From Candidatus Kaiserbacteria bacterium (GTDB taxonomy: Bacteria > Patescibacteriota > Minisyncoccia > Phycocordibacterales > Phycocordibacteraceae), in assembly GCA_016182485.1 (NCBI GenBank), contig JACPGH010000005.1:305-64304 (forward strand): a stretch of 64,000 bases of DNA, in the 5' to 3' direction. The notes under the pieces are model-generated. The model searched no databases, was not told the origin of the DNA, and was given only the letters and a program-made list of their open reading frames with translations. Shown here piece after piece: positions 25,032 through 62,125 of the stretch. Both the position numbers and the translations under genes were made by a program. Position 1 is the first letter of the stretch, and every line of letters begins with the position of its first letter.

Positions 25032-25400
25032 ATGTCCAGAGTCAAAGGAGGAATGATGGCCCAGAAGCGCCGTCGAAATATTTTGGAGAGAGCAAAAGGA
25101 TACCGCGGCATCCGCTCGAAAAAAGAGCGCTACGCGCACGAGGCATTGATGCGCGCCGGCCGTTACGCCTTCGCGCACCGCAAAGACAAAAAGAACGATT
25201 TTCGCCAGCTCTGGATCGTGCGCTTGAACGCCGCCGTCCGCGACAACCTGCCTGCCGGCAGGCAGGCGGCCATCAAGTCCTACAGCACATTTATTGCCGC
25301 TCTGAAAAATAAAAACATCCAGCTCGATAGGAAAGTTCTCGCGCAATTCGCCTCCGAGCATCCGGCCGTTTTCGCCCGGATCGCAAAGCAAGTCGCCTAA
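25032..25400 (+). CDS. rplT: 50S ribosomal protein L20
   Basis: MSRVKGGMMAQKRRRNILERAKGYRG... L20 signature. Confidence 0.95.
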   Translation: MSRVKGGMMAQKRRRNILERAKGYRGIRSKKERYAHEALMRAGRYAFAHRKDKKNDFRQLWIVRLNAAVRDNLPAGRQAAIKSYSTFIAALKNKNIQLDRKVLAQFASEHPAVFARIAKQVA

Positions 25401-25419
25401 CTGTTTTAAGAATTTATTG

Positions 25420-25461
25420 ATGTCGTAATTTTCATCCTATAGGATGAAAATTACGACATCT
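25420..25461. terminator. 42-bp perfect palindrome, bidirectional terminator between convergent rplT and DUF1653 gene
   Basis: GATGTCGTAATTTTCATCC tata GGATGAAAATTACGACATC (19-bp stem), T/A runs both sides. Confidence 0.7.
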
Positions 25462-25478
25462 GAAAATGCAAGAAATAT

Positions 25479-25694
25479 TTAGCCAGTATATTTAAAACGC
25501 GTCACGCGCCTGCCGTTAACCTCGACTTCGCCAGTGAACATCTCGAACGGCCGGGCCCACAATTTCGAGACTTCGTTTTCATACAACGCCTCGTAGATCA
25601 CCAAGTCTTCGAGCGTCTCGCAGTGCTTCCCCACGCCGATGACCCGGTATCGCTTGCCTTTGTAGTGCTCGTAAATTCCAGGTTTGATTTCCAT
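25479..25694 (-). CDS. DUF1653 family protein
   Basis: YEHYKGKRYRV...HCETLEDLVIYEALY...WARPFEMF matches DUF1653; start MEIKPG; TATACT box 8 nt upstream; ORF-track start 25754 possible. Confidence 0.75.
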   Translation of the reverse strand: MEIKPGIYEHYKGKRYRVIGVGKHCETLEDLVIYEALYENEVSKLWARPFEMFTGEVEVNGRRVTRFKYTG

Positions 25695-25770
25695 GATCTT
25701 CAGTATAGCAATCCTTGCGGCAGGACGATCGCGCTTGTGCGGCCGCCCTAACATTTTAACTACAAAATAT

Positions 25771-25808
25771 TTATCAACGATATGCGACGGTCGTCTATTA
25801 TTGTTGAT
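25771..25808. promoter_or_regulatory. 38-bp imperfect palindrome, candidate operator (copy 1)
   Basis: TATCAACGATATGCGACGGTCGTCTATTATTGTTGATA; near-identical to copy at 26393-26429; lies between PaaX-like gene 1 stop and DUF1653 start. Confidence 0.5.
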
Positions 25809-25813
25809 ATCAC

Positions 25814-26392
25814 CTATAAACCGAAATGCTCTCGCAAATGCCTGTCATTCTCTATCGCTTCGACCACCATATACAAGACTGCTCCGCCAATTTTCAGTTC
25901 CGCCTTTAAAAGCGCGACAAAATCCTCGCAATCATACGGAAAGACCCATACACTGTCTTGCAAGCGTACAAACCCCAGTTCCTGCATTATTATCCGGAGT
26001 CGGTTTCGCGTTCGCCTTCGCCGTTCGGGTATATCGAAAATAACCACGCGCCAACTCCCGTTCCACCGCCTCCTTTTGGATAAATCGAGCTTTGCTTTTT
26101 CCTGCTCAAAAGCCAGCTTCTTGCGGCCCGCCTCGGTGATCCTAGCATAGGACTTACCATCGCGCTTCTCGAATTTGATATAACCTTGGACCGCCAGTCT
26201 TCCGAGCGAGGTTCGGTATTGATAACGCAGTCTAGCTCTTTTCACGCTAGGCAGCTTATCTAAAGCGACGGGCAAATTCGGCGCAACCGATGCCACAAGT
26301 GCTACACCCGCAAGAGCGACCGCCGTTAGAAGAGCCACTTGAATATACGCCTTTTGCCTCTTCTTACTTGCTTCCGCCTCTACTTTTCCCAT
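25814..26392 (-). CDS. PaaX-like wHTH regulator paralog 1 (N-terminal TM anchor, winged helix, PaaX-type WDGKW middle domain)
   Basis: WNGSWRVVIFDIPERRRRTRNRL...GFVRLQDSVWVFPYD resembles PaaX region around WDGKW; start set at MGKVEAEAS because the palindromic operator abuts it (ORF-track start 26461 would put operator in CDS). Confidence 0.6.
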   Translation of the reverse strand: MGKVEAEASKKRQKAYIQVALLTAVALAGVALVASVAPNLPVALDKLPSVKRARLRYQYRTSLGRLAVQGYIKFEKRDGKSYARITEAGRKKLAFEQEKAKLDLSKRRRWNGSWRVVIFDIPERRRRTRNRLRIIMQELGFVRLQDSVWVFPYDCEDFVALLKAELKIGGAVLYMVVEAIENDRHLREHFGL

Positions 26393-26429
26393 ATCAACAA
26401 TATACGACGACCGTCTATTATGTTTGATA
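26393..26429. promoter_or_regulatory. 38-bp imperfect palindrome, candidate operator (copy 2) immediately upstream of PaaX-like paralog 1
   Basis: TATCAACAATATACGACGACCGTCTATTATGTTTGATA. Confidence 0.5.
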
Positions 26430-26457
26430 AGCTGGTGTGGATAATTTCTACCTGAAT

Positions 26458-27849
26458 TCAAATTCTATTTACTGAATCTTTGGCAATTTCCCACGTTTGG
26501 CCGAATTCGGGGACGATCGCGCGGGCGCCGAGGTAATCATGGATGCGCTGGGCCAAGAAACGCTCGGCTGCAGGCTCGCCGAGCGCCGTAAATATAGTTT
26601 TGACGCGCCCGCCCTCTAGGGATTTCTGCGCGAACTCTAGCAAGCCTTCCCGGTCGGCGTGCGCCGACCAGCCCTCGAGCACCTCGACCTTCGCCCGAAT
26701 GGGTACGTCCGTCCCTGCGATACGCACCGATGACGCTCCCTCCGCTATACGGCGGCCGGGACTCCCCGGCGCCTGGTATCCGACGGTGAAAAGCGTAGTC
26801 TTGGGATCGGGCAGGTACCGCGCCTCCCAGCGGCCGATGCGGCCGCCATGGCTCATACCCGCGCCCGCGATAACGATCTTCGGACCTGCTACTTTTTCGA
26901 TAGCTGCCGACTCCTCGCGCGAAAGCGTCTTTGTTAAAAAAGGAAAATTAAAAATACTTCCTTCTCGCTTCATCTCATCCTCTGCCTCAGGTTTAAAATA
27001 TGTCGGACCCCATTTCTCGTATACGTCTGTGACGCGTATAGCGAGCGGCGAATCCAGAAAGACAGGGATTTGCGGAAGAGAGTCTTCCGTAAAAAAGTTC
27101 GAAAGCTCATAGAGCATGAGTTGCGTCCGCTCAAGAGAGAAGGCGGGGATGAGAATGGCTCCGCCGCGGCTGATTGCGCGTTTCAGTGCCTCGACCAAGA
27201 TCTCGGCACGCCTCTGCTGAGGCGGATGCGCGCGATTGCCGTAGACGCTCTCCATCACGAGAACATCGGCGTCGGGCACCGGCTCAAAGTCTGGCAAGAG
27301 CGGCGAGGGCGAATTGCCGATGTCGCCCGTGAACGCTACAGAGATATTCTCTTCGCTCTGTATCCGAACGCTCGCCGAGCCGAGAATGTGTCCGGAGTCG
27401 CGCAAATATGCCGAGAGCCCGGGGGCCACTTCTTTTTCAGTGTGGTACTCGAGCGGCTCGATGAGCATAAGTGCGGAATCCACGTCTTGCTCCTCGTATA
27501 GCGGTTCTCGGCCAAGTCGCCTTGCTTCTTCTCGCAAAATACTTGCGGAATCGCGCAGAATAAGTTCCGCCAAATCCCGCGTCGGCGGCGTCATATGGAT
27601 CCTTCCTCGAAAACCTTCCTTTACAAGCTTCGGGATACGGCCGACATGATCGAGATGCGCGTGCGTGACGATAAGCGCGCCGATCGAAGAAACATCGTAC
27701 GGAAACGGTCCATACACCTCTTCGACGGCAATGTCCGCGCCCTGCTCAATGCCGCAGTCTATCAGTATCTTGCTCTGAGAACTTTCAAGCAGAAAGTTAG
27801 AACCCGTAACCTTGCCCGCGCCGCCGTAGAATTTTAATCGTAACGACAT
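26458..27849 (-). CDS. MBL-fold beta-CASP family hydrolase (RNA-metabolising metallo-beta-lactamase)
   Basis: THAHLDHVG motif, beta-CASP region, C-terminal RMMBL-like. Confidence 0.8.
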   Translation of the reverse strand: MSLRLKFYGGAGKVTGSNFLLESSQSKILIDCGIEQGADIAVEEVYGPFPYDVSSIGALIVTHAHLDHVGRIPKLVKEGFRGRIHMTPPTRDLAELILRDSASILREEARRLGREPLYEEQDVDSALMLIEPLEYHTEKEVAPGLSAYLRDSGHILGSASVRIQSEENISVAFTGDIGNSPSPLLPDFEPVPDADVLVMESVYGNRAHPPQQRRAEILVEALKRAISRGGAILIPAFSLERTQLMLYELSNFFTEDSLPQIPVFLDSPLAIRVTDVYEKWGPTYFKPEAEDEMKREGSIFNFPFLTKTLSREESAAIEKVAGPKIVIAGAGMSHGGRIGRWEARYLPDPKTTLFTVGYQAPGSPGRRIAEGASSVRIAGTDVPIRAKVEVLEGWSAHADREGLLEFAQKSLEGGRVKTIFTALGEPAAERFLAQRIHDYLGARAIVPEFGQTWEIAKDSVNRI

Positions 27850-28743: not shown

Positions 28744-28821
28744 TTTATAGCAAGATAGGCGTTAGGCGCTAGGCTTTAGCAATAACGTATTCGCTAGAGC
28801 CTAATGCCTAGTGCCTGAATT

Positions 28822-29595
28822 TTAGGCCTGATATCTGGTAATGATACGCGCCCCATCCTTTTCGAGCAAGATGGTGTGCTCGAAATGCGCGGAGCGCGAG
28901 CCGTCCTTGGTGCGGAAAGTGTAGCCGTCGGGAGATAGTACGACAGCTCCCTTCCCCGCCGAAGAAATAGGCTCGAGCGCGAGCACCATGCCCTCTTTTA
29001 GAAGAGGTCCGGTGCCGGTGCGGCCATAGTTCGCAATGAAAGGCTCCTCATGCACGCGCGCGCCTACGCCGTGCCCGCCGAGTTCTTTCACGACCGAGAA
29101 GCCGGCGGCCTCGATCTCTCTTTGTATGGCGTGCGAGATATCGCCCATATGATTTCCGGCCTTTGCTGCGGCAATGCCCGCAGCGAGCGCATTCTCCGTC
29201 GCGCGGATTAATCTTTTGGACTCATCACTAACCGCGCCTACCTGCACCGTGACAGCGGCATCGACAATGACACCTGCATGCGTGAGACCCAGATCAAGCC
29301 CTGCAATGTCGCCTTCTTCGAGTTTTTTTGACGATTCGTTCGGAATCCCATGCACTATCTCGTCGTTAACCGACACGCAGAGCGTAGCGGGATAAGGCCG
29401 AGACGCGCCTTCGGGCGTATAGCCGAGAAATGCCGGCAAGTCGCCGCCGTCGCGGATCAGTTTCTCCGCCAGATCATCGAGCTCTTCGGTGTTTACGCCG
29501 GGAGCCACGCGCGACGCAACCTGGCTTAAAATTGCAGCCAGCCGCTTGCCGCCTTCGATTAACGCCGCTTTTTGCTCCAGTGACGCAATTGTCAT
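28822..29595 (-). CDS. map: Methionine aminopeptidase type I
   Basis: Pita-bread fold metal ligands; full-length MetAP-I. Confidence 0.95.
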   Translation of the reverse strand: MTIASLEQKAALIEGGKRLAAILSQVASRVAPGVNTEELDDLAEKLIRDGGDLPAFLGYTPEGASRPYPATLCVSVNDEIVHGIPNESSKKLEEGDIAGLDLGLTHAGVIVDAAVTVQVGAVSDESKRLIRATENALAAGIAAAKAGNHMGDISHAIQREIEAAGFSVVKELGGHGVGARVHEEPFIANYGRTGTGPLLKEGMVLALEPISSAGKGAVVLSPDGYTFRTKDGSRSAHFEHTILLEKDGARIITRYQA

Positions 29596-31931: not shown

Positions 31932-32567
31932 TTAGCGCGAACGGCTTGCCGCGAGCGTAGTCGAGCGGAGCTCCTTGAGCGCCTCGACCGTCGCCCGCGC
32001 GATCGTGAGCTTGTTTTTCGTGCGCGAGTGGATCTTGGTGACCACGTCTGTCACGCCGGCGAGCTCGAGCACGGTACGCACGGCCGAACCGGCGACCAGC
32101 CCGCGGCCTTTCGAGGGAATGATCTCCACGATGGAGGAGGCGTATTTCGCGGACACCTGGTGCGGAATCGAATTGGCGGAGGTGCGCGGCACCGTAAATA
32201 AGTGCTTCTTGGCATCCCGCGTCGCCTTATCGATGGCAAGCGCCGTGTCCACTCCCTTTCCGAGTCCCACCCCTACGCGGCCTTTCTTGTCGCCGATGAT
32301 AACGGCGAGACTGAAGCTGAAGCGGCGGCCGCCGGCCATCACGCGAGCCACGCGGCGCGCCTCGATCGTAACCTGATCGAATTCTCCGCGCTCGCGCGGA
32401 GCGCGCGGGCCTCGGCCTCTCGGAGCGCGGCCGCGCATCGAGCCGCGTCCCGCGTGAAAAGGTCCGCGTTCCTGTGCGGGCTGCGCGGCCGCCGGCGTCG
32501 ATTCGGCGGGCTCCGTGACGAGCGCCACTTCTTCTTGGATCACTTCTTTTTCGGGAATGGTTGCCAT
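31932..32567 (-). CDS. rpsE: 30S ribosomal protein S5 with Arg/Pro-rich N-terminal extension
   Basis: VTIEARRVARVMAGGRRFSFSLAVIIGDKKGRVGVGLGK signature. Confidence 0.9.
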   Translation of the reverse strand: MATIPEKEVIQEEVALVTEPAESTPAAAQPAQERGPFHAGRGSMRGRAPRGRGPRAPRERGEFDQVTIEARRVARVMAGGRRFSFSLAVIIGDKKGRVGVGLGKGVDTALAIDKATRDAKKHLFTVPRTSANSIPHQVSAKYASSIVEIIPSKGRGLVAGSAVRTVLELAGVTDVVTKIHSRTKNKLTIARATVEALKELRSTTLAASRSR

Positions 32568-32600
32568 TTTTCTATATTTAAATGTTAAAAATATTTGAAT

Positions 32601-32951
32601 TTAAAATATAAGCCCGCCTGCGCGCGCCGCCTCCGCAAGCATCTGCACATGCCCGCCATAGCGGTAGCCGCCGCGATCGAAGACGACCGACTTCACGCCG
32701 AGGTCCTTGGCCGCTTTCGCTATCGCCTCGCCTACCGCCTTCGCCTGCACGGATTGAGAGCCTTTGAACGTACGCCCGTGCGCCGAAGCGACAGTCCTCC
32801 GCCTCGCGTCATCGATGAGTTGCGCGGAAACGAACTGATTCGACTTGTATACGGAAAGCCGCGGACGCTCGCTCGTCCCGACAATTTTTGCGCGTATGCG
32901 CTTGTGGCGGCGCTTCCTGAGTTCGTTCTTGGATTTGAATTTGTGTTGCAT
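32601..32951 (-). CDS. rplR: 50S ribosomal protein L18
   Basis: L18 signature RPRLSVYKSNQFVSAQLIDD. Confidence 0.9.
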   Translation of the reverse strand: MQHKFKSKNELRKRRHKRIRAKIVGTSERPRLSVYKSNQFVSAQLIDDARRRTVASAHGRTFKGSQSVQAKAVGEAIAKAAKDLGVKSVVFDRGGYRYGGHVQMLAEAARAGGLIF

Positions 32952-32984
32952 GTTTTTTGCTAGAGCCTAGCGCCTAAAGCCTAG

Positions 32985-33515
32985 TTAGACGACCTTCTTG
33001 CCCTGCTTGCGGCGGACAACTTCGGTATCGTAGTGCATGCCCTTCCCCAGATACGGTTCCGGGGGCTTCACGCGCCGTACGACCGCGGAAAATTGTCCGA
33101 CCGATTCCTTGTTCGGGCTCGCGAAGGTTATGACGTTCTTCTCCACGGTAACAGCGACATCTTCGGGAATAGGCAGCTTCACCGGATGGGAGAAACCAAC
33201 TGAGAGCACGAGTTCTTTGCCTTTCAGCTCTACGCGATAACCAACGCCTTCGAGGATCAGCTTTTTTACGTAGGGCGTCTCCACGCCAGCGATCATGTTC
33301 TTGAGATGCGAGGCGAATGTGCCGGTCAGAGCCCGAGCGAGCCGAGAGTTCTCCTTGGGCGCAACGGATACGCCCTCTGCGCCTACTGTGATGGATATCG
33401 TCGGGTGCACGCGCTTGGCGAGCGTGCCCTTGGCGCCCTTCACGGTGAGAGTGCCGCCGGCGACCGAGACCTCGGCCTTGCCTATAGCGATGGGTTTTTT
33501 AGCGAGACGGCTCAT
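32985..33515 (-). CDS. rplF: 50S ribosomal protein L6
   Basis: MSRLAKKPIAIGKAEV..., two L6 repeats. Confidence 0.95.
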   Translation of the reverse strand: MSRLAKKPIAIGKAEVSVAGGTLTVKGAKGTLAKRVHPTISITVGAEGVSVAPKENSRLARALTGTFASHLKNMIAGVETPYVKKLILEGVGYRVELKGKELVLSVGFSHPVKLPIPEDVAVTVEKNVITFASPNKESVGQFSAVVRRVKPPEPYLGKGMHYDTEVVRRKQGKKVV

Positions 33516-34301: not shown

Positions 34302-34853
34302 TCAGCGTTTGGCGACCGAGTCAACGACGAGAGGAAGGCCAAGATGGCGCAGGAACGCCTCGGCCTCGGCCTTTGACGAGGCAGTCGTTACGATCGTGAT
34401 AGCGAGACCGAACACGTCCTTCAGGTCCTCGTCGGAGGTCTCCGGGAAGATCGTATTCTCTTTGATGCCGACGGTGACATTCCCCATATCATCAATAGCT
34501 TTGGCTGAAAGGCCTCGGAAGTCGCGAGTGCGCGGCAGGGCGATGTGGATGAGCTTGTCGAGGAAATCGTACATGCGGGCGCCGCGCAGAGTCACCTGAA
34601 GGCCAACTACGTCTCCCTCGCGCACCTTGAAGGAAGCGATCGAAAGGCGCGCCGTGCGTGCGGAAGGCTTCTGCCCCGTGATGCGAGCCAGACGATCCTC
34701 GATCAATTCGAGTTGTTTTTTGTCCCGCTTCTTGCCGACGCCGGAGGACACGATGACCTTGGTCACGCGCGGGCCCTGCATAGGACTCGTGTACCCGAAG
34801 GCCTCGCGGAGCGCGAGATAAGCGGCCTGCTGTTTTTGCTTGGTGAGAGACAT
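34302..34853 (-). CDS. rplE: 50S ribosomal protein L5
   Basis: L5 signature. Confidence 0.95.
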
Positions 34854-34885
34854 AATTAAATATTTAAATATTTAAATATTTAAAG
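34854..34885. repeat. (TTAAATAT)x3-4 tandem octamer repeat in rplX-rplE spacer
   Basis: attaaatatttaaatatttaaatatttaaagc directly upstream of rplE ATG. Confidence 0.7.
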
Positions 34886-35149
34886 CTACTTGCTTTTGCC
34901 CTTCGGCGCACCGAACGCCGATTCGACCTTTCCCTTCCCCGTGCGCACGACATTGCTCGCGTCTATCGGGCGCGGGCGCTCTACAATGCGCCCTACCTTG
35001 CCCGCGGCGCCCTTAAGGTGCCGCTTCGCGAGCGCGACGCCTTCTACGACGACCTTGTTCTCGCGCGGCAGGGCGCGCAGGATTACTCCGGACTTTCCTT
35101 TGTCCTTGCCGGTAATCACTTTCACGGAATCGCCTTTTTTAATTTTCAT
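34886..35149 (-). CDS. rplX: 50S ribosomal protein L24
   Basis: KOW motif MKIKKGDSVKVITGKDKGKSGVI. Confidence 0.9.
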   Translation of the reverse strand: MKIKKGDSVKVITGKDKGKSGVILRALPRENKVVVEGVALAKRHLKGAAGKVGRIVERPRPIDASNVVRTGKGKVESAFGAPKGKSK

Positions 35150-35551: not shown

Positions 35552-35568
35552 AGGTAGATAAGTAGGCT

Positions 35569-35847
35569 CTAGGCTCTAGGCTCTAGGCTGATACGGAAAT
35601 GCTTGCGTTTTGAAATGGGTCGCGTAGCCACAATGGTGACTTTATCGCCTACCTGCGCGGCATTGCCTGGATTGTGGGCGAGAAATTTTTTCGAACGAAC
35701 AAGGTATTTCTTGTATTTCGGGTGCTTCTCGAAGCGGTCGACCCGCACGGTGGCCGTCTCCTGCATGGCCGTCTTGACGACGGTTCCGACGAACGATTGA
35801 GGTCGACCCTGAACGGAGCGAGCGAGGCGAGTGAGTTTTTGTTCCAT
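35569..35847 (-). CDS. rpsQ: 30S ribosomal protein S17
   Basis: OB-fold S17 signature; 3' end contains (GGCTCTA)x3 tandem. Confidence 0.9.
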   Translation of the reverse strand: MEQKLTRLARSVQGRPQSFVGTVVKTAMQETATVRVDRFEKHPKYKKYLVRSKKFLAHNPGNAAQVGDKVTIVATRPISKRKHFRISLEPRA

Positions 35848-37230: not shown

Positions 37231-37239
37231 AGCTAGAGC

Positions 37240-37569
37240 CTAGTGCCTAGAGCCTAGTTCCACGGTAATGCGGCTCTTGCGCCGGCGGATGAGCGCGGCG
37301 CTGCCGCGCGCGCGAGGCATGTACTTCTTGAGCATTCCGGCGCTGCCCACCGTGACGCTCTTCACGACGAGCGTCTCCGCATCTACCCCCTGTGCCTTAG
37401 CGTTCGCCGCGGCGCTCTCTATAAGCTTTTTCATGGGTTCGGCCGCGCGCTTGGGAAGGAACGCGAGCGAAGCAAGCGCATGAGGCACCTTCTTTCCCTT
37501 CACTAGGTCGGCGACGAGCCGGACCTTGCGGGGCGACTGGTTATAGCTTTTGAGCGAGGCAGTAGCCAT
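37240..37569 (-). CDS. rplV: 50S ribosomal protein L22
   Basis: L22 signature. Confidence 0.9.
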   Translation of the reverse strand: MATASLKSYNQSPRKVRLVADLVKGKKVPHALASLAFLPKRAAEPMKKLIESAAANAKAQGVDAETLVVKSVTVGSAGMLKKYMPRARGSAALIRRRKSRITVELGSRH

Positions 37570-39248: not shown

Positions 39249-39284
39249 AAAACTAGTGGCTAGGTGCTAGTAACTGGAGACTAG

Positions 39285-39653
39285 TTAGGCGAATTGAATC
39301 GTGTCGCCGGCGTTCAAATACACGTACGCCTTGCGTCTGGCCGCGCGCGTGCCGAAGCCGCGCTTCGTGCGAAGGGCTTTGCGCTTCGCCGACAGGTTCA
39401 CGACACGGATTTTCCTCGGCACGACGTTGAAGATCTCCTTTACCGCCCCGGCTATCTGGGCTTTAGTCGCCCAGGCGGGAACTGAAAAAGCGTATACGCC
39501 CTTTTCCGTCGCAATGAGCGCCTTCTCCGAGAACCAGGGCGCGCGGATGATCTCATGCGCAATCCCATTTGAAAGCTTCGAGGCCCGCGCATGGCGAACG
39601 ACCGCCTTGCTTTCTTTCTTGTCCTCCTTCTTTTTTGTACCGAAGAGTGCCAT
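39285..39653 (-). CDS. rplW: 50S ribosomal protein L23 with N-terminal extension
   Basis: L23 core. Confidence 0.85.
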   Translation of the reverse strand: MALFGTKKKEDKKESKAVVRHARASKLSNGIAHEIIRAPWFSEKALIATEKGVYAFSVPAWATKAQIAGAVKEIFNVVPRKIRVVNLSAKRKALRTKRGFGTRAARRKAYVYLNAGDTIQFA

Positions 39654-41583: not shown

Positions 41584-41742
41584 GCAATCCTCCGGGAAAG
41601 AATTTGTACATCCTCGAAAATCCTACCTATCAAATTCTTCAGTTTTTGTGAATCAAGAGAGGCGCCCTAGTGCCTAGAATTTAGATCATCTTCTAGTCTG
41701 CTTCCTTTTCTTCATGTTCGTTATTTTGCATGGTCGTGAGAC

Positions 41743-43059
41743 TTAACGAACATTGATCGCCGCATTAGCGGAGGAAGAAGTTGCAAAGCCGCCGAAAAGC
41801 TCCTGCATAACGTCTCGAAGAGAACCGGCCTCGGAAGGAGGAGCGATCGAGAAGGCCTTTCCGTGATCTCCGAGTGAAATCTCGAAAGAAAGTGTCGACC
41901 GCGCGCCGGTCGCGATGTCATCAATTGTCATCGGAGCAGCTTTTATTTTGTACATATATTTATCCTGCGCCCCGATCCAGAGGTCGAGGGCCATCTCCTT
42001 CCCTATCCATTGGTCCAGTTCCCGTTGCGTCTCGGCCGCTTCTTCCGGAGTCGTGGTCGACCGGAGGTCGGACGTAAGCTTCCTTAACAAATCGGCGAGC
42101 TTCTTTTCGTATGTGGCGACGAGCGCAAGGTGGCGCGTAGGCGTTTCAGAGATCGTTTCATTGCCGAGATCTGTAAGAGATCGTACATAACTCCCGCCTT
42201 GGGCATACGCCATAAGCGCCTCTGCATCCTGCCTGATCGCGGGCCACGCCTCCGCCGGAATTGTGCTCGTGGCGTTGTCTGCCTTGATCCATTTGTTCTC
42301 GATGGATTCCGCGAACCCGTTTGCAAGACCGGAAATCATCCCAAGCATGAGATTCGTCTTAGGATCCGTAGCATGAAAATCGAGTTTTAGCGCGTTAAGC
42401 ACCAAATACAAATCTTTGCCGTCATAGATTCCGCGCGCGGACAATTCTCCCGAGCCGGTCGTCGTGACAGCGCTGGACGCAAAGCTCATGCTTAGGGTTA
42501 CATCCCCACGCGAATCGGCGGCATGACGGTCAATGAGCCCGCGTGTTTCCAGAGTGAACGTACCGGACATAGGCAAGACGTCTTTTCCTATTGCCGTTCC
42601 CTCAATGCTTCCGGTCGACGTAGCGGCAAAAGCGACCGATGATATATTCCCCATCGCCTCGAAGCTATTTTGCAGTATTTCTTGCGGAGATTGCTGAAGC
42701 GGCGCAGGGAACAGCAGGTCGCGATATTGATAAGCGGCAAACGCTCCCCCACCGCCGACCAGGATGCATGCGCCGGCAATGATCAAATTTCGCCACGAAC
42801 GTGAACTCGGCTTCGGGGACACGAGTACGGTGCCTGCGGGGGCCGTTATTGGCGAATACACCGGCTGTGCTTTCGGCTCGGTCTGGCTAAGGGTTGGGGC
42901 CGGAGCAAATGCTTGAGCTATATCGGGATCAGTCCATCCATTGGCTCGCAAATTATTTTCGACAGTCTCGCGCGAAGAGCCGTTCGCGAGCTGCTCGCGA
43001 ACGTACGTAAGGAGCGCTTCGGTAATCATGCTTTGATTGTAAACAAAACCCGCACGCAA
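41743..43059 (-). CDS. Hypothetical single-pass membrane protein (438 aa) inserted between rpsJ and rplC
   Basis: ~95-aa cytoplasmic N-term, TM helix LIIAGACILVGGGGAFAAY, ~320-aa extracytoplasmic domain. Confidence 0.6.
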   Translation of the reverse strand: MRAGFVYNQSMITEALLTYVREQLANGSSRETVENNLRANGWTDPDIAQAFAPAPTLSQTEPKAQPVYSPITAPAGTVLVSPKPSSRSWRNLIIAGACILVGGGGAFAAYQYRDLLFPAPLQQSPQEILQNSFEAMGNISSVAFAATSTGSIEGTAIGKDVLPMSGTFTLETRGLIDRHAADSRGDVTLSMSFASSAVTTTGSGELSARGIYDGKDLYLVLNALKLDFHATDPKTNLMLGMISGLANGFAESIENKWIKADNATSTIPAEAWPAIRQDAEALMAYAQGGSYVRSLTDLGNETISETPTRHLALVATYEKKLADLLRKLTSDLRSTTTPEEAAETQRELDQWIGKEMALDLWIGAQDKYMYKIKAAPMTIDDIATGARSTLSFEISLGDHGKAFSIAPPSEAGSLRDVMQELFGGFATSSSANAAINVR

Positions 43060-49131: not shown

Positions 49132-49228
49132 CCTAAAATGAATCGCCCCAAGGTTCCTTCCAATTTGTTCCTTAATCATAGCGGTCGTTAGAGTTATGGA
49201 ACAGCTAACCAAAATAGGAAAATAATCA

Positions 49229-49816
49229 CTAGGAAAGACCAAAGTGCTTCCGCAGCATGTCGTCGCGCTCTATTTCTTCAGCAACGATGTACACGATGCT
49301 TTTCCCGAGACGCAGATTCGTTCGCAGAAATACTAGGAGTTCTTCACTGTCGTACGGGTAGACCCATACGCTGTTCTGGATTTTGACGAAACCGTTTCTT
49401 TGGAGAAGCGCTCTGAAGCGGTCTCGCACTTTTCTCCGCCGCTCCCAAATATCAAAAATAATCATGCGCCATTTGCCATCCCATTGCTTTGGATTCGCTC
49501 TCTCGAAGCGCTTATTCTCCTCCTCCATGGAAACCGCTACTCGGACACCTCTGGCAGTAAGCCTCAAGGCCGACCCTTGTTTTGTCCGTACTCGCTCAAG
49601 AAGCCCACGCGCGCGCAGGCGGTTTATTGCCTGGCATATTCGCCGATTCAATCGGGGCTTAGGGCCAATATATTTCTCCACGTATTTGAGCAGCCGTGCG
49701 GCATTCGGCGCCGTTAAGATCAATCCGAGTCCGGCAGTCAGATAAATTGACCCCAGTACCACCGCCTGTATTTTCTCTCGTTTAGCCCTCTGCCGGACTT
49801 TTTCTTCCATGCGCAT
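49229..49816 (-). CDS. PaaX-like wHTH regulator paralog 2 (N-terminal TM anchor)
   Basis: Same architecture as 25814..26392: TM, wHTH, WDGKWRMIIFDIWERRRKVRDRF...GFVKIQNSVWVYPYD. Confidence 0.6.
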   Translation of the reverse strand: MRMEEKVRQRAKREKIQAVVLGSIYLTAGLGLILTAPNAARLLKYVEKYIGPKPRLNRRICQAINRLRARGLLERVRTKQGSALRLTARGVRVAVSMEEENKRFERANPKQWDGKWRMIIFDIWERRRKVRDRFRALLQRNGFVKIQNSVWVYPYDSEELLVFLRTNLRLGKSIVYIVAEEIERDDMLRKHFGLS

Positions 49817-49824
49817 GTTCCTTA

Positions 49825-49845
49825 GTATACACGACCGTTATTGAT
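49825..49845. promoter_or_regulatory. Half-site related to the 38-bp PaaX-like operator, overlapping a TATACT -10 box 7 nt upstream of paralog 2 ATG
   Basis: tatacacgaccgttattgata vs tatacgacgaccgtctattatgtttgata. Confidence 0.35.
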
Positions 49846-49886
49846 ATGGAACACAGCTCGTGGACAGGCGTATTTTGAAGTCAGAA

Positions 49887-50231
49887 TTACCAAGCGAAGT
49901 GCGCGGACGCGATAGACCGCACAATTTTACAGATGAATGCGCCTACGAGGAATCCGGCAGTCATCCATGCGACAATAGCAGCAAAGACGGCGGCCTGCGC
50001 CGGAATGCCAAAATATCCCTCGATTTCCAGAAGAGGATATGTTAAAGGTATCATCACTTTTGCCAAAATACTCATTTCCGGAGCGGCGTCCATAAAAGCG
50101 AAGAAGTTGAGACCGTAGCGGAAATCCGTCGCCCATATCCAGACTAATGTTGCAACTGGGAAAAGCGCCCCAATAAAACCGGAAAAAAGGTACCAGAAGC
50201 GCTTTCGCGTCAACTTTTCAGAATCGCTCAT
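49887..50231 (-). CDS. Hypothetical 3-4 TM membrane protein
   Basis: Hydrophobic; inserted between rpsG and fusA. Confidence 0.5.
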   Translation of the reverse strand: MSDSEKLTRKRFWYLFSGFIGALFPVATLVWIWATDFRYGLNFFAFMDAAPEMSILAKVMIPLTYPLLEIEGYFGIPAQAAVFAAIVAWMTAGFLVGAFICKIVRSIASAHFAW

Positions 50232-50249
50232 TTCTAAACAGTAGCACGG

Positions 50250-50714
50250 CTACCAAGCAAAGTGCGCAAAAGCTTTATTTGCTTCCGCCATTCTGTGCAT
50301 TTCGTCCTTCTTTTTGATCGCCTCCCCTTCGTTCTTTGACGCGAGAAGGATTTCATTCGCGAGCTTCTCGGCCATAGGTTTGCCTTTCTTCGAACGCGCC
50401 GCGCCGATTATCCATCGGAATGCGAGAGCGAGCCTGTGCTGTTGAGGCACTTCGCGGGGCACCTGGTAATTCGCGCCGCCGACGCGCCGCGAGCGGACTT
50501 CCATAAGGGGCGAGACGTTGCGGATAGCGGCCTCGAAAGTTTCCATCGGTTCGGCGCCGTCCTTTTTCAAGATGTCGAACGCACCGTAGACCACGGCCCG
50601 AGCCGTATCTTTCTTACCGTCCCACATAACTGCATTGATGAAGCGGGTCAGGGTTTCGGACCCGTACTTCAAATCAGGACGCCATGTTCTTTTCTTTTTA
50701 AGTGGTCGTCTCAT
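50250..50714 (-). CDS. rpsG: 30S ribosomal protein S7
   Basis: S7 signature. Confidence 0.95.
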   Translation of the reverse strand: MRRPLKKKRTWRPDLKYGSETLTRFINAVMWDGKKDTARAVVYGAFDILKKDGAEPMETFEAAIRNVSPLMEVRSRRVGGANYQVPREVPQQHRLALAFRWIIGAARSKKGKPMAEKLANEILLASKNEGEAIKKKDEMHRMAEANKAFAHFAW

Positions 50715-50742
50715 TGTATTTCTAAAGCCTAGTGCCTAGAGC

Positions 50743-51150
50743 CTATTTCGGCCTCTTAGCGCCGTACCGAGAGCGTGCCGTGCGGCGCTTCTCGACGCCG
50801 GACGCATCAAGCTTGCCGCGCACTATCGTATACTGGACGCCGATATCCTTCACGCGGCCGCCGCGCAGCATTACAACAGAGTGCTCCTGTAGATTGTGGC
50901 CCATGCCAGGAATATAGGCGGTTACCTCCATCCCGTTCGTCAGCCGCACGCGCGCGATCTTGCGGATAGCGGAGTTCGGCTTGCGCGGCGTCTTCGTCGT
51001 CACCTTCGTAGCTACGCCACGTTTGAAGGGAGAAGGATAATAAGTCGGCCGGTTCTCGAGGGAGTTGAATCCGCGGGCAAGCGCAGGCACGCTCGTCTTG
51101 AACGGCCTCTGCTTGCGCCCTTTTTTAGTAAGCTGATTGATAGTGGACAT
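50743..51150 (-). CDS. rpsL: 30S ribosomal protein S12
   Basis: S12 signature incl. PNSA(I/L)RK. Confidence 0.97.
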
Positions 51151-57083: not shown

Positions 57084-58019
57084 TTAGCGAAATTCTGCCC
57101 GGCCGGCCGAGAGCCACGTCTCAAGCGGCAGGTCCTCTGCTCGGGCGCTCTCGGGAATGCCGGCGGCCTGAAGGGCTTTCGCCGAAATGACGGAGGCGCG
57201 GATGAGATTATTCCTCACTAATTTGCGCTTATGCGCGAAGCCGGCGTGCAGGAGCTCGAAAAAATGCTTTTCTTCTTTGGCATTTTTGAAATTTCTGCGC
57301 GAGATATCCCGAATGGCAAGGACGGCGGAATCCACTTTCGGGGCGGGCCGGAATGCGCCGCGCGGGACGGTAAATTCGTATCGCGGCGTGCCATAGGCTT
57401 TGACCGAAAGCGAGAGGAGGCTTTCCTTGCCCTTCGAAGCTTTAGCGGAGTAGGGTTTGCCCGAGCGCGCAACCCGTTCAGCCACTTCTTTCTGTACGAG
57501 AAGCATCATAGACCTCGGCTGATTGCGCGCTTCGAGAAACATGCGGATGATCTCGCCCGTGAGATAGTAAGGAATGTTCGCTATCACATGATAACCATCT
57601 TTTACGCTATAGCGTGAATTAAGGTTATGCCCGACCCAATCGCGGATGTCGGCGTGCACGAGCTCGAGGCGGCCGCCCGCGATTTCTTTTGCAAAAGTTT
57701 CCTTCAATTCTGCAACGAGCGCCGCGTCCATTTCGACAGCGATTACTTTTTTGGCTCGCGCGAGAAGCGCTTTAGTCAAGATGCCCCGGCCGGGCCCGAT
57801 TTCGAGCACGGTAGCATCTTTCGGCAGCTCGGCGGATTTTACGATCCGCTCCGCGATGCGCGGATGCATGAGAAAATGCTGGCCGAGCGATTTCTTGGGG
57901 CGTGAAGCCCGCAGGTTGAAAAGAGAGTTGAATTGGCCTAGCGGCCGGAGCGCTCTCTTTTCGGCCTGTGGGCGAACGCCCCTACGCCTCAATAGTTTCC
58001 TCGGCATCCGATTCATCAT
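57084..58019 (-). CDS. rsmA: 16S rRNA (adenine1518/1519-N6)-dimethyltransferase RsmA/KsgA with ~45-aa basic N-terminal extension
   Basis: KKSLGQHFLM, VLEIGPGRGILT SAM motif. Confidence 0.85.
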   Translation of the reverse strand: MMNRMPRKLLRRRGVRPQAEKRALRPLGQFNSLFNLRASRPKKSLGQHFLMHPRIAERIVKSAELPKDATVLEIGPGRGILTKALLARAKKVIAVEMDAALVAELKETFAKEIAGGRLELVHADIRDWVGHNLNSRYSVKDGYHVIANIPYYLTGEIIRMFLEARNQPRSMMLLVQKEVAERVARSGKPYSAKASKGKESLLSLSVKAYGTPRYEFTVPRGAFRPAPKVDSAVLAIRDISRRNFKNAKEEKHFFELLHAGFAHKRKLVRNNLIRASVISAKALQAAGIPESARAEDLPLETWLSAGRAEFR

Positions 58020-61284: not shown

Positions 61285-61761
61285 CTAGTCTTTCTTTTCA
61301 ACGACCTGCCCGTTCGGAAGCCGCACGTAACCGGCTTTCATGATCATTTCTCCAACGATATCGCGCGGCGCTTCCCTTTTTAATTGCGAACCCGACATGC
61401 CGCCAATTTTTACCCTCTTAGCGAAGCTCGCGATGAGCCGGCTGCATTCCTCGGCAAGCGAATTTAAATGTTTAAACGTTTCAATATTTAAATATCCTAT
61501 GTCAGAAGCGACATATAACTGGGCGCGCACTTCCCCGGCGGACGCCTTAGCGATGTACAAATAATTCAAGAATTCGTACTTTGTGCCGCTCTCAAATCCT
61601 TCCGCTATGTTGGAGACGATCGATACCGATGCGCGCTGAATTTGGTCGCGGAAGCCGTTGTCTCTGCACGCTGTGAACGCTTTATAAACAAGTTTCGTGA
61701 GCTCACGCGCTTTCTTAAACATCATTAGGTCTTCAAATCTTTGTATGGTTGCCATCTTCAA
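61285..61761 (-). CDS. Four-helix-bundle protein (23S rRNA intervening-sequence protein family)
   Basis: Conserved IVSNIAEGF...Y..A.(S/G)S..E family signature; TTG or ATG (61755) start; AT-rich relative to surroundings. Confidence 0.75.
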   Translation of the reverse strand: MKMATIQRFEDLMMFKKARELTKLVYKAFTACRDNGFRDQIQRASVSIVSNIAEGFESGTKYEFLNYLYIAKASAGEVRAQLYVASDIGYLNIETFKHLNSLAEECSRLIASFAKRVKIGGMSGSQLKREAPRDIVGEMIMKAGYVRLPNGQVVEKKD

Positions 61762-61835
61762 ATGTTTAAATGTTTAAATGTTTAAATGTTTAAATGTTTA
61801 AATGTTTAAATGTTTAAATGTTTAAATGTTTAAAT
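61760..61835. repeat. (AAATGTTT)x9 perfect tandem octamer repeat abutting the start of the four-helix-bundle gene
   Basis: aaatgtttaaatgttt... 72 bp, then aaatttc. Confidence 0.9.
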
Positions 61836-61847
61836 TTCTGCGAATAA

Positions 61848-62096
61848 TCAGCCCGAAAGTAGATCCAAATCCACTTCCAAATCTTCAATTTTGGTTTTAA
61901 TTAGCTTTTTTGCGTCGTTAAGCGCCTTCTTGTATATATGTTCGCCCATAGATCGTAAAAAGAAATCGAGTATCTGCTCAGCGGCTACAAAGCCGATTAT
62001 TTCATCTCGTTCATTTTGAAAGAAACTGATTATCTCGTTCAAGTATGCGGTCTTGGCTTCTTTCGAAGCAAAATCGAATTTGTTTTTCTTTTCCAT
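61848..62096 (-). CDS. DUF2164-like small protein (82 aa)
   Basis: Lys/Glu-rich helical; AT-rich codon usage like neighbour gene. Confidence 0.5.
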   Translation of the reverse strand: MEKKNKFDFASKEAKTAYLNEIISFFQNERDEIIGFVAAEQILDFFLRSMGEHIYKKALNDAKKLIKTKIEDLEVDLDLLSG

Positions 62097-62125
62097 AATT
62101 TACATTTTTACATATTTAAATATTT

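What the first reader, a model, noticed from the sequence alone, without database searches (positions are those of the whole stretch)
25771..26429. Two paralogous TM-anchored PaaX-like wHTH proteins, each preceded by the same 38-bp palindromic motif
The 38-mer TATCAACRATATRCGACGRYCGTCTATTATKKTTGATA occurs at 25771-25808 (downstream of paralog 1, in the DUF1653 gene promoter region) and at 26393-26429 (abutting the likely start of paralog 1). A related half-site overlapping a TATACT -10 box lies 7 nt upstream of paralog 2 (49825-49845). The arrangement suggests autoregulation and a small regulon controlled by a membrane-tethered repressor family that has expanded in this genome.
Basis: seen in the sequence. 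Interest (0 to 1): 0.65.

Follow-up and report, generated by a model that had tools for sequence, protein, structure and literature searches.

The report
Regulator genes bracketed by their operators
Two small PaaX-like DNA-binding protein genes in this Kaiserbacteria (CPR) genome are each sandwiched between two copies of their own private 38-bp palindrome, an arrangement conserved in relatives across related CPR lineages (Kaiser-, Adler-, Nomura-, Yonath-, Zambryski- and Vogelbacteria), and it most likely represents a self-repressing, self-insulating regulator module.

Summary
The 38-mer is real: 25772-25809 and 26392-26429, with 0 matches expected by chance. The two copies do not each "precede" a paralog. 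They bracket paralog 1 (25814-26392, minus strand). One abuts its ATG and carries a -10 box placed for a leaderless transcript. The other starts 4 nt after the stop codon. Paralog 2 (49229-49816) is bracketed in the same way by a different palindrome (49816-49853 and 49166-49203).

In 74 of 81 homologous loci, the best match to the 70 nt upstream of the gene lies just past the gene's own stop codon; the figure for control genes is 8 of 283. The palindromes differ between paralogs and co-vary with protein lineage. They show no RNA-hairpin signature.

The proteins are short PaaX relatives. They have a winged helix and the Cas2-like PaaX_M domain but no effector domain, and the best structural match is E. 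coli PaaX. They also carry a very hydrophobic N-terminal helix. The site geometry (7-bp arms, 24-bp gap) mirrors the PaaX operator TGATTC-N27-GAATCA.

The best reading is autorepression from a promoter-overlapping operator plus a promoter-less second operator that acts by looping or roadblock. Extra "orphan" sites in related metagenome contigs, and one remnant in the window (41715-41752), partly support a small regulon. Membrane anchoring rests on hydropathy alone.

The parts
25814..26392 (-). Paralog 1: 192-aa short PaaX-like protein. It has an N-terminal hydrophobic helix, a winged helix and the Cas2-like PaaX_M domain, and no PaaX_C domain.
   Evidence: Pfam PaaX_M 2e-19. AF2 pLDDT 83. Best Foldseek match is E. 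coli PaaX 8a39, E=1.5e-6. Homologues of ~193 aa fix the ATG at 26392.
26392..26429 (-). Paralog-1 upstream operator/promoter: a 38-bp palindrome whose last base is the A of the ATG. The -10 TATATT at 26399-26404 lies 6 nt before the ATG, implying a leaderless mRNA.
   Evidence: TANNNT lies exactly 6 nt before the start codon in 51/81 homologues, and an SD-like sequence occurs in only 5/81.
25772..25809 (-). Paralog-1 downstream operator: the second copy of the palindrome, starting 4 nt after the stop codon. It has no good -10 (GCATATC).
   Evidence: Downstream copies rarely carry a -10 (4/17, against 17/18 for upstream copies).
49229..49816 (-). Paralog 2: 195-aa short PaaX-like protein, located between rpsG and fusA.
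   Evidence: Pfam PaaX_M 1.1e-19. 35% identical to paralog 1. Orthologues sit between rpsG and fusA or directly upstream of fusA.
49816..49853 (-). Paralog-2 upstream operator/promoter: a distinct 38-bp palindrome (TGTTCC...GGAACA arms, CGGTCG core) abutting the ATG. The -10 TATACT lies at 49824-49829.
   Evidence: The same design is seen in orthologues L204, L206 and L208.
49166..49203 (-). Paralog-2 downstream operator, 25 nt after the stop codon, lying between convergent genes (an HD-domain gene is on the + strand).
   Evidence: 25/36 bases are identical to the upstream copy, with arms and core conserved.
41715..41752 (-). Orphan operator of a third paralog type (TGTTCGTTAAG...CTTAACGAACA). 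It abuts an ATG followed by only 9 codons (41686-41715), so it is a remnant of a lost paralog upstream of rplC.
   Evidence: It aligns base for base, including ATGAAGAAA, with the upstream site of the P0203-type paralog in L208/L209, which lies between rpsJ and rplC.

Best explanation
Each gene encodes a short PaaX-type DNA-binding protein. Inferred: it binds as a dimer to its own 38-bp bipartite palindrome, which has 7-9-bp outer arms about three helical turns apart plus a 6-8-bp CG-rich core. Shown from sequence: one copy overlaps the gene's own promoter. In one class the -10 box lies inside the gene-proximal half of the palindrome and the ATG abuts it. In a second class of relatives the palindrome ends about 21 nt upstream and covers the -35 region. 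The transcript is inferred to be leaderless. Binding at this copy would therefore occlude RNA polymerase and give negative autoregulation. Shown from sequence: a second copy, usually without a -10 box, sits a median of 11 nt after the stop codon whatever the orientation of the next gene. Inferred: this copy is a second operator. It would either cooperate with the first through a ~620-650-bp loop or act as a roadblock that insulates the regulator gene from transcription coming from, or going into, the neighbouring highly expressed translation operons. Each paralog has a private site, so paralogs form orthogonal modules. A few extra sites elsewhere would be further targets. The hydrophobic N-terminal helix may tether the protein to the membrane. 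The PaaX effector domain is absent, so phenylacetyl-CoA control is not expected.
For: Bracketing:
- In 74/81 loci the best 30-nt match in +-3 kb to the upstream 70 nt lies -30 to +120 nt from the gene's own stop.
- The control is 8/283 other genes.

Co-variation:
- A gene's own upstream and downstream copies share 31.7/38 bases on average.
- Paralogs in one genome share 10-22/38 in 8 of 9 pairs, and 28/38 in the pair L075/L077.
- Site identity rises with protein identity (rho 0.51).
- Residues 57-58 of the predicted recognition helix (YQ versus AR) track the arm type TATCAAA versus TATCCGC.

DNA-level rather than RNA-level symmetry:
- G.T mismatches equal A.C mismatches (40 versus 40-47).
- Palindromy is concentrated in the core and outer arms.

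Promoter:
- TANNNT lies 6 nt before the start codon in 51/81 loci, and almost no SD-like sequences are present.
- The -10 box is present in 17/18 upstream copies but only 4/17 downstream copies.

Protein:
- Pfam assigns PaaX_M.
- The AF2 model has a winged helix plus a Cas2-like fold, and its best PDB match is E. coli PaaX.
- The PaaX operator is TGATTC-N27-GAATCA, 39 bp (PMC9493321). The site here is TATCAAC-N24-GTTGATA, 38 bp.

Downstream neighbour:
- It is convergent in 46/75 loci, so the downstream copy is not generally the next gene's promoter.
Against: - No binding, transcript-start or expression data exist. All steps beyond sequence anatomy are inferred.
- No helical phasing is seen between the two sites (Rayleigh p>0.1). 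This neither supports nor excludes looping at this distance.
- The class with the palindrome centred near -41 could be activating rather than repressing.
- A regulator whose main visible target is itself needs another output. The orphan sites are mostly promoter-less, and some are intragenic.
- If the N-terminal helix spans the membrane with N-in topology, the DNA-binding domain would lie outside the cell.
- Pfam did not detect the PaaX N-terminal domain by sequence.
Confidence: 0.6

Rival explanations
1. The protein is mainly a membrane-tethered, site-specific DNA anchor or boundary element, working like Noc or ParB-type proteins. It would pin a handful of palindromes, including the two around its own gene, to the membrane or block polymerase traffic. 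Transcriptional autoregulation would be a side effect.
For: A TM-like N-terminal helix is present in 38/40 homologues. Most non-promoter copies lack a -10 box: downstream copies 13/17 and orphans 54/77. Orphan sites occur between convergent genes and inside genes. The modules sit inside or next to translation operons: RNase J-like gene / rplT, rpsG-fusA, and rpsJ-rplC.
Against: The upstream copy always overlaps the promoter, which is the classic repressor placement. Membrane insertion and topology are untested. The site number per genome appears small: 2 extra sites in 324 kb of flanks.
Confidence: 0.15
2. The palindromes are recombination or cassette-boundary sites (att/dif-like). The gene-between-two-sites layout would then be the footprint of cassette integration, with the encoded wHTH-Cas2-like protein as the site-recognition factor.
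For: In metagenome contigs, identical copies of a site plus 30-70 nt of flank bracket unrelated inserted genes. These are a RelE/antitoxin pair in L115, a 90-aa gene in L193 and a 270-aa gene in L084. The central dinucleotide is asymmetric (GACC/GGTC).
Against: No recombinase is linked. The orientation of the asymmetric centre is direct in some loci and inverted in others. Paralog positions are syntenic over deep divergence. The lost third paralog in the window left its start codon and 9 codons, which is not a clean site-to-site excision. No relatives were found in viral contigs. The duplications extend beyond the palindrome, as expected from homologous recombination.
Confidence: 0.1
3. The palindromes act as RNA hairpins. 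The downstream copy would be a terminator or 3' stabiliser of the regulator mRNA, and the upstream copy would be the terminator of the preceding gene.
For: Both copies lie just after a stop codon: the RNase J-like gene ends 28 nt before the upstream copy, and paralog 1 ends 4 nt before the downstream copy. Some relatives have near-perfect 38-bp palindromes.
Against: There is no G.U excess over A.C. The pairing is weak in the middle of each half-site. The window copies fold poorly (-3.2 to -5.4 kcal/mol, z -0.7 to -2.2). There is no T tract, and 0 terminator-like sites were found in 25300-26600. These genomes do have ordinary GC-rich, T-flanked terminator hairpins elsewhere. An RNA-hairpin role does not explain why the sequence is specific to each paralog.
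Confidence: 0.07

Closest known systems
PaaX repressor of phenylacetate catabolism (E. coli W, PDB 8a39; Pfam PaaX / PaaX_M / PaaX_C)
   Same: It shares the winged helix plus the Cas2-like middle domain, and PaaX is the best structural match. The operator design is the same: short inverted arms ~25-27 bp apart (TGATTC-N27-GAATCA versus TATCAAC-N24-GTTGATA). PaaX also represses its own promoter by steric hindrance (PMC9493321).
   Different: The protein is 192 aa rather than ~305-316 aa and has no PaaX_C effector domain. It has an added hydrophobic N-terminal helix. No paa genes lie nearby. The mRNA is leaderless. A second operator sits immediately after the stop codon. There are several orthogonal paralogs per genome. 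The lineage is CPR.
Regulator genes bracketed by operators that loop (lambda CI with OL/OR; LacI O1/O3; GalR OE/OI)
   Same: The regulator binds two or more cognate sites that flank or lie near its own gene. One site overlaps the promoter and the other is an auxiliary site hundreds of bp away.
   Different: Looping is not shown here and no phasing signal is seen. The auxiliary site is placed systematically right after the stop codon across a whole protein family.
Controller (C) proteins of restriction-modification systems with C-boxes
   Same: These are small autoregulated HTH proteins. Their palindromic operators abut the start codon of a leaderless transcript, and the operators co-vary with the protein subfamily (PMC2632904).
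   Different: The fold differs (Xre-type HTH). C proteins have no downstream copy, are not linked to R-M genes here, and have no Cas2-like domain.
REPtrons (RAYT transposase genes flanked by cognate REP palindromes)
   Same: A gene for a DNA-recognising protein is bracketed by two copies of a clade-specific palindrome, with further copies elsewhere in the genome.
   Different: There is no HUH/Y1 transposase. The copy number is a handful, not hundreds. The upstream copy is the gene's promoter.
CRISPR Cas2 (the name NCBI gives these proteins)
   Same: The C-terminal half has the ferredoxin-like Cas2 fold (Foldseek hits to Cas2; weak PF09827 hits).
   Different: Top-20 repeat families in the window include no CRISPR-like array; cas1 was not searched. 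The protein is fused to a DNA-binding domain. The PaaX_M hit is far stronger. The Cas2 annotation is best regarded as a misnomer.

Membership tests
PaaX family transcriptional repressors | Central Cas2-like domain (Pfam PF20803 PaaX_M) | tested here: met
   E=2e-19 for paralog 1 and 1.1e-19 for paralog 2, both above the curated cut-off.
PaaX family transcriptional repressors | N-terminal winged-helix DNA-binding domain (Pfam PF07848) | tested here: inconclusive
   No Pfam hit to PF07848 at E<=0.1. The AF2 model has a helix 49-68 plus a wing 72-85, and Foldseek aligns 137 columns to E. coli PaaX 8a39 (E=1.5e-6).
PaaX family transcriptional repressors | C-terminal helical effector (phenylacetyl-CoA) domain, Pfam PaaX_C | tested here: not met
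   The protein ends ~10 residues after PaaX_M (192 aa versus 305 aa for 8a39). There is no PaaX_C hit.
PaaX family transcriptional repressors | Operator made of two short inverted arms separated by ~27 bp | tested here: met
   Shown in silico only. The site is TATCAAC-N24-GTTGATA. Palindromy is concentrated in the outer arms and a central core across 54 loci. The reference operator is given in PMC9493321.
PaaX family transcriptional repressors | Genomic linkage to paa catabolic genes | tested here: not met
   The neighbours are an RNase J-like beta-CASP gene, DUF1653, rplT, rpsG, fusA and an HD-domain gene.
CRISPR-associated Cas2 | Stand-alone ~90-aa Cas2 next to cas1 and a CRISPR array | tested here: not met
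   The Cas2-like part is the C-terminal half of a 192-aa fusion protein. The PF09827 hit is marginal (22.4 bits, below the 23.8 cut-off, for paralog 1; 26.7 bits for paralog 2). No CRISPR-type repeat array appears among the window's 20 largest repeat families. cas1 was not searched for explicitly.
Intrinsic (Rho-independent) terminators | GC-rich stem-loop followed by a T tract | tested here: not met
   0 terminator-like sites in 25300-26600. Folding energies are weak. There is no G.U bias.
REPtron (RAYT + REP) | HUH/Y1 transposase gene flanked by high-copy REP palindromes | tested here: not met
   The protein is PaaX-like. Only 2 extra copies were found in 324 kb of flanking DNA.
Membrane-anchored one-component regulators (ToxR/CadC-like) | Transmembrane segment tethering a cytoplasmic DNA-binding domain | tested here: inconclusive
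   The Kyte-Doolittle 19-residue maximum has a median of 2.0 in 40 homologues, and the uncharged stretch is 22-36 aa. AF2 models one long N-terminal helix, residues 3-28. Both flanks are K/R-rich, the segment lies N-terminal to the DNA-binding domain, and no TM predictor or experiment was available.

The most novel reading that the evidence does not exclude
This family is not an ordinary metabolite-sensing repressor. It would be a set of orthogonal, membrane-tethered DNA clamps. Each clamp would mark its own gene and a few other loci, several of them inside ribosomal-protein and translation operons, with promoter-less palindromes. These would act as protein-dependent transcription boundaries, or as chromosome-membrane anchors, in ultra-small CPR cells. 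The same sites would double as hotspots where gene cassettes are inserted.
Probability: 0.15. Interest if true: 0.8.

Novelty: new variant of a known kind. Interest (0 to 1): 0.6.

Why it matters
CPR/Patescibacteria have very few recognisable regulators and none has been studied experimentally in this group. This work gives a large family, with hundreds of 50%-identity clusters and several paralogs per genome. For each member, the cognate DNA site can be read directly from the two flanks of the gene. That provides a natural protein-DNA specificity table with dozens of arm and core variants. It also provides a compact, apparently self-insulating autoregulatory module that could be tested or reused. 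In addition, it corrects a widespread database annotation ("CRISPR-associated endonuclease Cas2"). The position of the modules next to fusA, rplC and rplT hints at control of transcription flow through translation operons.

Tried and rejected
- RNA hairpin or terminator: rejected. Fold energies are weak, no terminator pattern is present, and there is no G.U excess.
- tRNA or known RNA families next to the downstream copy: none. ARAGORN found nothing in 16 loci, and Rfam found nothing in 7 loci or in the window apart from tRNA-Ser. The conserved 'CCATCGTCCCCGA' after the site in several orthologues appears, from a by-eye reverse translation of one locus, to be the C-terminal coding end of a convergent DUF1653 gene.
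- CRISPR-like reading (two 38-bp repeats): rejected. The 'spacer' is the 579-bp gene, no CRISPR-like array appears among the 20 largest repeat families in the window, and cas1 was not searched for.
- Transposon/TIR or phage element: no transposase, conserved synteny, and no relatives in viral contigs.
- Downstream copy as the promoter of the next gene: this holds only for a subset. Examples are a class-B group upstream of a 280-310-aa ORF with a conserved PIKHWSHSSLMAFLRNPLAW motif (not annotated here), and two loci upstream of an ORF starting with an RNase HII-like N-terminus (assigned by eye). The neighbour is convergent in 46/75 loci, and a -10 box is present in only 4/17 downstream copies.
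- Helical phasing of the two sites: none.
- Fixed polarity of the asymmetric centre (GACC versus GGTC) between the upstream and downstream copies: none. Both arrangements occur.
- Literature: six full-text searches found nothing on this CPR family or on the bracketing layout.
- Genome-wide site count in the window's own organism: could not be done.

Full report
**1. Observation**

The degenerate 38-mer occurs exactly twice in the window, at 25772-25809 and 26392-26429. No shuffle produced even one match. Each copy is a quasi-palindrome: TATCAAC / GTTGATA arms and a GACG-NN-CGTC core. As a result the two copies match both in direct register (32/38) and in inverted register (30/38).

The copies do not precede two genes. 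They bracket one gene, the 192-aa ORF 25814-26392 on the minus strand. The last base of the upstream copy is the A of the ATG, and the downstream copy starts 4 nt after the stop codon. The longer TTG-initiated ORF from 26461 is not supported. The first 120 listed homologues are almost all 192-197 aa and align from the MG.VE start.

Paralog 2 (49229-49816, minus strand) shares only the CGRYCG core with that motif. It has its own 38-bp palindrome with TGTTCC...GGAACA arms. One copy abuts its ATG (49816-49853), with TATACT at 49824-49829, 7 nt from the ATG. A second copy (49166-49203) lies 25 nt after its stop codon. tblastn finds only these two paralogs in the window.

**2. The proteins**

Both paralogs hit Pfam PaaX_M, the Cas2-like central domain of PaaX, at about 1e-19. 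They hit CRISPR_Cas2 only marginally. The two are 35% identical.

An AlphaFold2 model (mean pLDDT 83) shows these elements:
- a long N-terminal helix (residues 3-28);
- a helix (49-68) followed by a beta wing (72-85);
- a ferredoxin-like domain (114-177).

Foldseek places E. coli PaaX (8a39, E=1.5e-6) and Rv0674 (3kfw) at the top, followed by genuine Cas2 proteins and PadR/AspA-type winged helices. By sequence, only 3kfw is found in the PDB (E=0.004). The PaaX C-terminal effector domain is absent.

Residues ~15-38 form a 22-36-residue uncharged stretch. Its Kyte-Doolittle 19-residue maximum is 2.0-2.5 in 38 of 40 homologues, which is TM-like. Both flanks carry 5-6 Lys/Arg, so the topology cannot be predicted.

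The organism is a Candidatus Kaiserbacteria (Patescibacteria/CPR), and NCBI names the protein 'CRISPR-associated endonuclease Cas2'. The family is large. A profile search of 1.84 billion representatives gives 436 clusters at E<=1e-30 and 3049 at E<=1e-10.

**3. The bracketing is a family trait**

I fetched 80 loci from species-representative genomes, with 39-79% protein identity. They are labelled Kaiser-, Adler-, Nomura-, Yonath-, Zambryski- and Vogelbacteria, among others.
- In 74 of 81 loci (the two window paralogs included), the best 30-nt match anywhere in +-3 kb to the 70 nt upstream of the start codon lies between -30 and +120 nt of the gene's own stop codon.
- For 283 other genes in the same loci the figure is 8, with random-level scores.
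- The downstream copy begins a median of 11 nt after the stop codon.
- The centre-to-centre distance is 591-732 bp (median 643), with no helical periodicity.

**4. The sites co-vary with the protein**

Arm and core sequences differ widely between lineages:
- arms: TATCAAA, TATCCGC, TATCCAC, TATCCCC, ATTCCTAT, TATTGGCT, GTTCC and others;
- cores: CGACCG/CGGTCG, CTATAG, CCATGG, GCGGCCGC.

A gene's two copies share on average 31.7 of 38 bases. Upstream sites of paralogs within one genome share 10-22 of 38 in 8 of 9 pairs examined; the exception is L075/L077, at 28 of 38. Across loci, site identity rises with protein identity (15/38 at 30-50% identity, 26/38 at 70-80%; Spearman 0.51).

Within the paralog-1 orthologues, residues 57-58 of the predicted recognition helix are YQ (YR in one locus, L009) where the arms are TATCAAA. 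They are AR where the arms are TATCCGC. Paralog-2 orthologues, and a third paralog type, show the same layout with their own arms.

**5. DNA site or RNA hairpin?**

Palindromic pairing is bipartite:
- 87-97% at 2-4 bp from the centre;
- 71-97% at 11-19 bp from the centre;
- only 50-64% in between.

Among non-Watson-Crick positions, G.T equals A.C (40 versus 47 upstream, 40 versus 40 downstream). There is therefore no sign of selection for an RNA stem on the sense strand. The window copies fold weakly. No terminator-like pattern is present. These genomes carry ordinary GC-rich, T-flanked hairpins elsewhere.

The geometry of 7-bp arms separated by 24 bp is that of the E. coli PaaX operator, TGATTC-N27-GAATCA (PMC9493321).

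**6. Promoter anatomy**

A TANNNT hexamer lies exactly 6 nt before the start codon in 51 of 81 loci, and 5-7 nt before it in 62. Shine-Dalgarno-like sequences occur in 5. I infer that the mRNAs are leaderless.

Two layouts exist:
- The palindrome abuts the ATG, with the -10 box inside its gene-proximal half. This is the layout in the window.
- The palindrome ends about 21 nt upstream, with its centre near -41 and the -10 box just downstream of it.

In a metagenome set of paralog-1-type sites, the -10 box is present in 17/18 upstream copies but only 4/17 downstream copies. The downstream neighbour is convergent in 46 of 75 loci. The downstream copy therefore belongs to the regulator gene and not to the next gene. 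In a subset it does sit at the next gene's promoter, for example upstream of a conserved 280-310-aa ORF or an RNase HII-like ORF.

In the window, DUF1653 most likely starts at 25694 with its own TATACT, about 60 nt from the palindrome.

**7. Regulon**

The window contains no further paralog-1 or paralog-2 sites, even at 23/38 identity. The flanks of 54 loci (324 kb) contain only 2 extra copies.

- Of 145 sites, 50 flank PaaX-like genes and 95 do not.
- Of 53 such orphans with more than 750 nt on both sides, 40 are intergenic and 13 intragenic (for example in rarA-like and folD-like ORFs, named from motifs by eye).
- The orphans are as palindromic at unspecified positions as the true flanking sites (5.2 of 9 pairs, against 2.25 expected by chance). 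Only 23 of 77 carry a -10 box.

The window holds one orphan of a third type. The site 41715-41752 aligns base for base, including the following ATGAAGAAA, with the upstream operator of the paralog found between rpsJ and rplC in other genomes. It is followed by only nine codons, so it is a remnant of a lost paralog.

**8. Explanation**

The best-supported model has three parts:
- a dimeric short PaaX-type protein binds its private palindrome;
- the upstream copy overlaps the leaderless promoter and gives negative autoregulation;
- the promoter-less downstream copy is a second operator, acting by looping or as a roadblock that insulates the gene.

Insulation is plausible given where the genes sit. 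They lie inside or beside strongly transcribed translation operons: after an RNase J-like gene and near rplT, between rpsG and fusA, and between rpsJ and rplC. All functional steps are inferred.

Three rivals remain:
- a Noc-like membrane anchor or boundary role, which would fit the hydrophobic helix and the promoter-less sites;
- cassette or recombination sites, suggested by duplications of site plus flank around a toxin-antitoxin pair, a 90-aa gene and a 270-aa gene, but weakened by conserved synteny, mixed polarity of the asymmetric centre and the absence of a recombinase;
- RNA hairpins, which are disfavoured by section 5.

**9. Novelty**

Six literature searches found no description of this family or layout. 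It is a new variant of a known kind. It is PaaX-like in fold and operator geometry. It lacks the effector domain and paa linkage, it adds an N-terminal hydrophobic helix, and its operators systematically bracket the gene.

Noticed in passing
window 25421-25458: A perfect 38-bp palindrome, TGTCGTAATTTTCATCCTATAGGATGAAAATTACGACA (19/19 pairs, CCTATAGG core), lies between the convergent rplT and DUF1653 genes. It has the same length and core type as operators of other family members (for example L037 and L041), but no T tract. It could be an orphan operator of a paralog encoded elsewhere, or a bidirectional hairpin.
   Followed up: partly
window 41686-41752: A remnant of a third PaaX-like paralog upstream of rplC. 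The operator and ATG are intact, followed by 9 codons and a stop. The -10 box has decayed (CAAAAT versus TAGAAT in L208).
   Followed up: yes
window 57591-57628: A 38-bp palindrome, ATAACCATCTTTTACGCTATAGCGTGAATTAAGGTTAT (15/19 pairs, CGCTATAGCG core), lies inside the 311-aa ORF 57084-58019 (KsgA/RsmA-like by eye; no domain search run). It may be a chance match or an intragenic site of this class.
   Followed up: no
window 61754-61841 (also 32550-32613, 34844-34899, 61452-61507, 62080-62127): Tandem 8-nt repeats ATGTTTAA (about 10 units), with related AT-rich TTTAAAT(A/G)T runs at several intergenic places.
   Followed up: no
window 28755-28825, 32954-32991, 35559-35586, 37232-37264, 39259-39291, 50717-50753, 41668-41680: A recurrent GCCTAG-N-GCCTAG-type motif (GCTAGAGCCTAGYGCCTARAGCCTAG) occurs in both orientations near gene ends and starts, for example just upstream of rpsL/rpsG. 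It may be a promoter-associated or other regulatory repeat.
   Followed up: no
L115 2968-3745; L193 3162-3763; L084 608-1863: In metagenome contigs, 73-110-nt direct duplications (operator palindrome plus adjacent flank, 92-100% identical) bracket unrelated inserted genes. These are an antitoxin/RelE-like pair, a 90-aa beta-barrel-like protein, and a 270-aa protein inserted between the RNase J-like gene and the PaaX-like gene. The palindromes seem to be insertion hotspots.
   Followed up: partly
L181 1396-2117: A more divergent 201-aa wHTH plus Cas2-like protein without the hydrophobic N-terminal helix is also bracketed by two identical 45-nt palindrome copies. The layout therefore extends beyond the TM-bearing subfamily.
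   Followed up: partly
window 49229-51150; L204, L206, L208: PaaX-like modules, and in L208 a HicAB pair, are inserted inside the otherwise conserved str (rpsL-rpsG-fusA) and S10 (rpsJ-rplC) operons of these CPR genomes.
   Followed up: partly
window 25479-25754 versus L006, L004, L013, L018: Downstream ORFs that cluster with or resemble the window's DUF1653 gene lie on the opposite strand in some orthologous loci (e.g. L006) and on the same strand in L018; read from ORF clustering and by eye.
   Followed up: no
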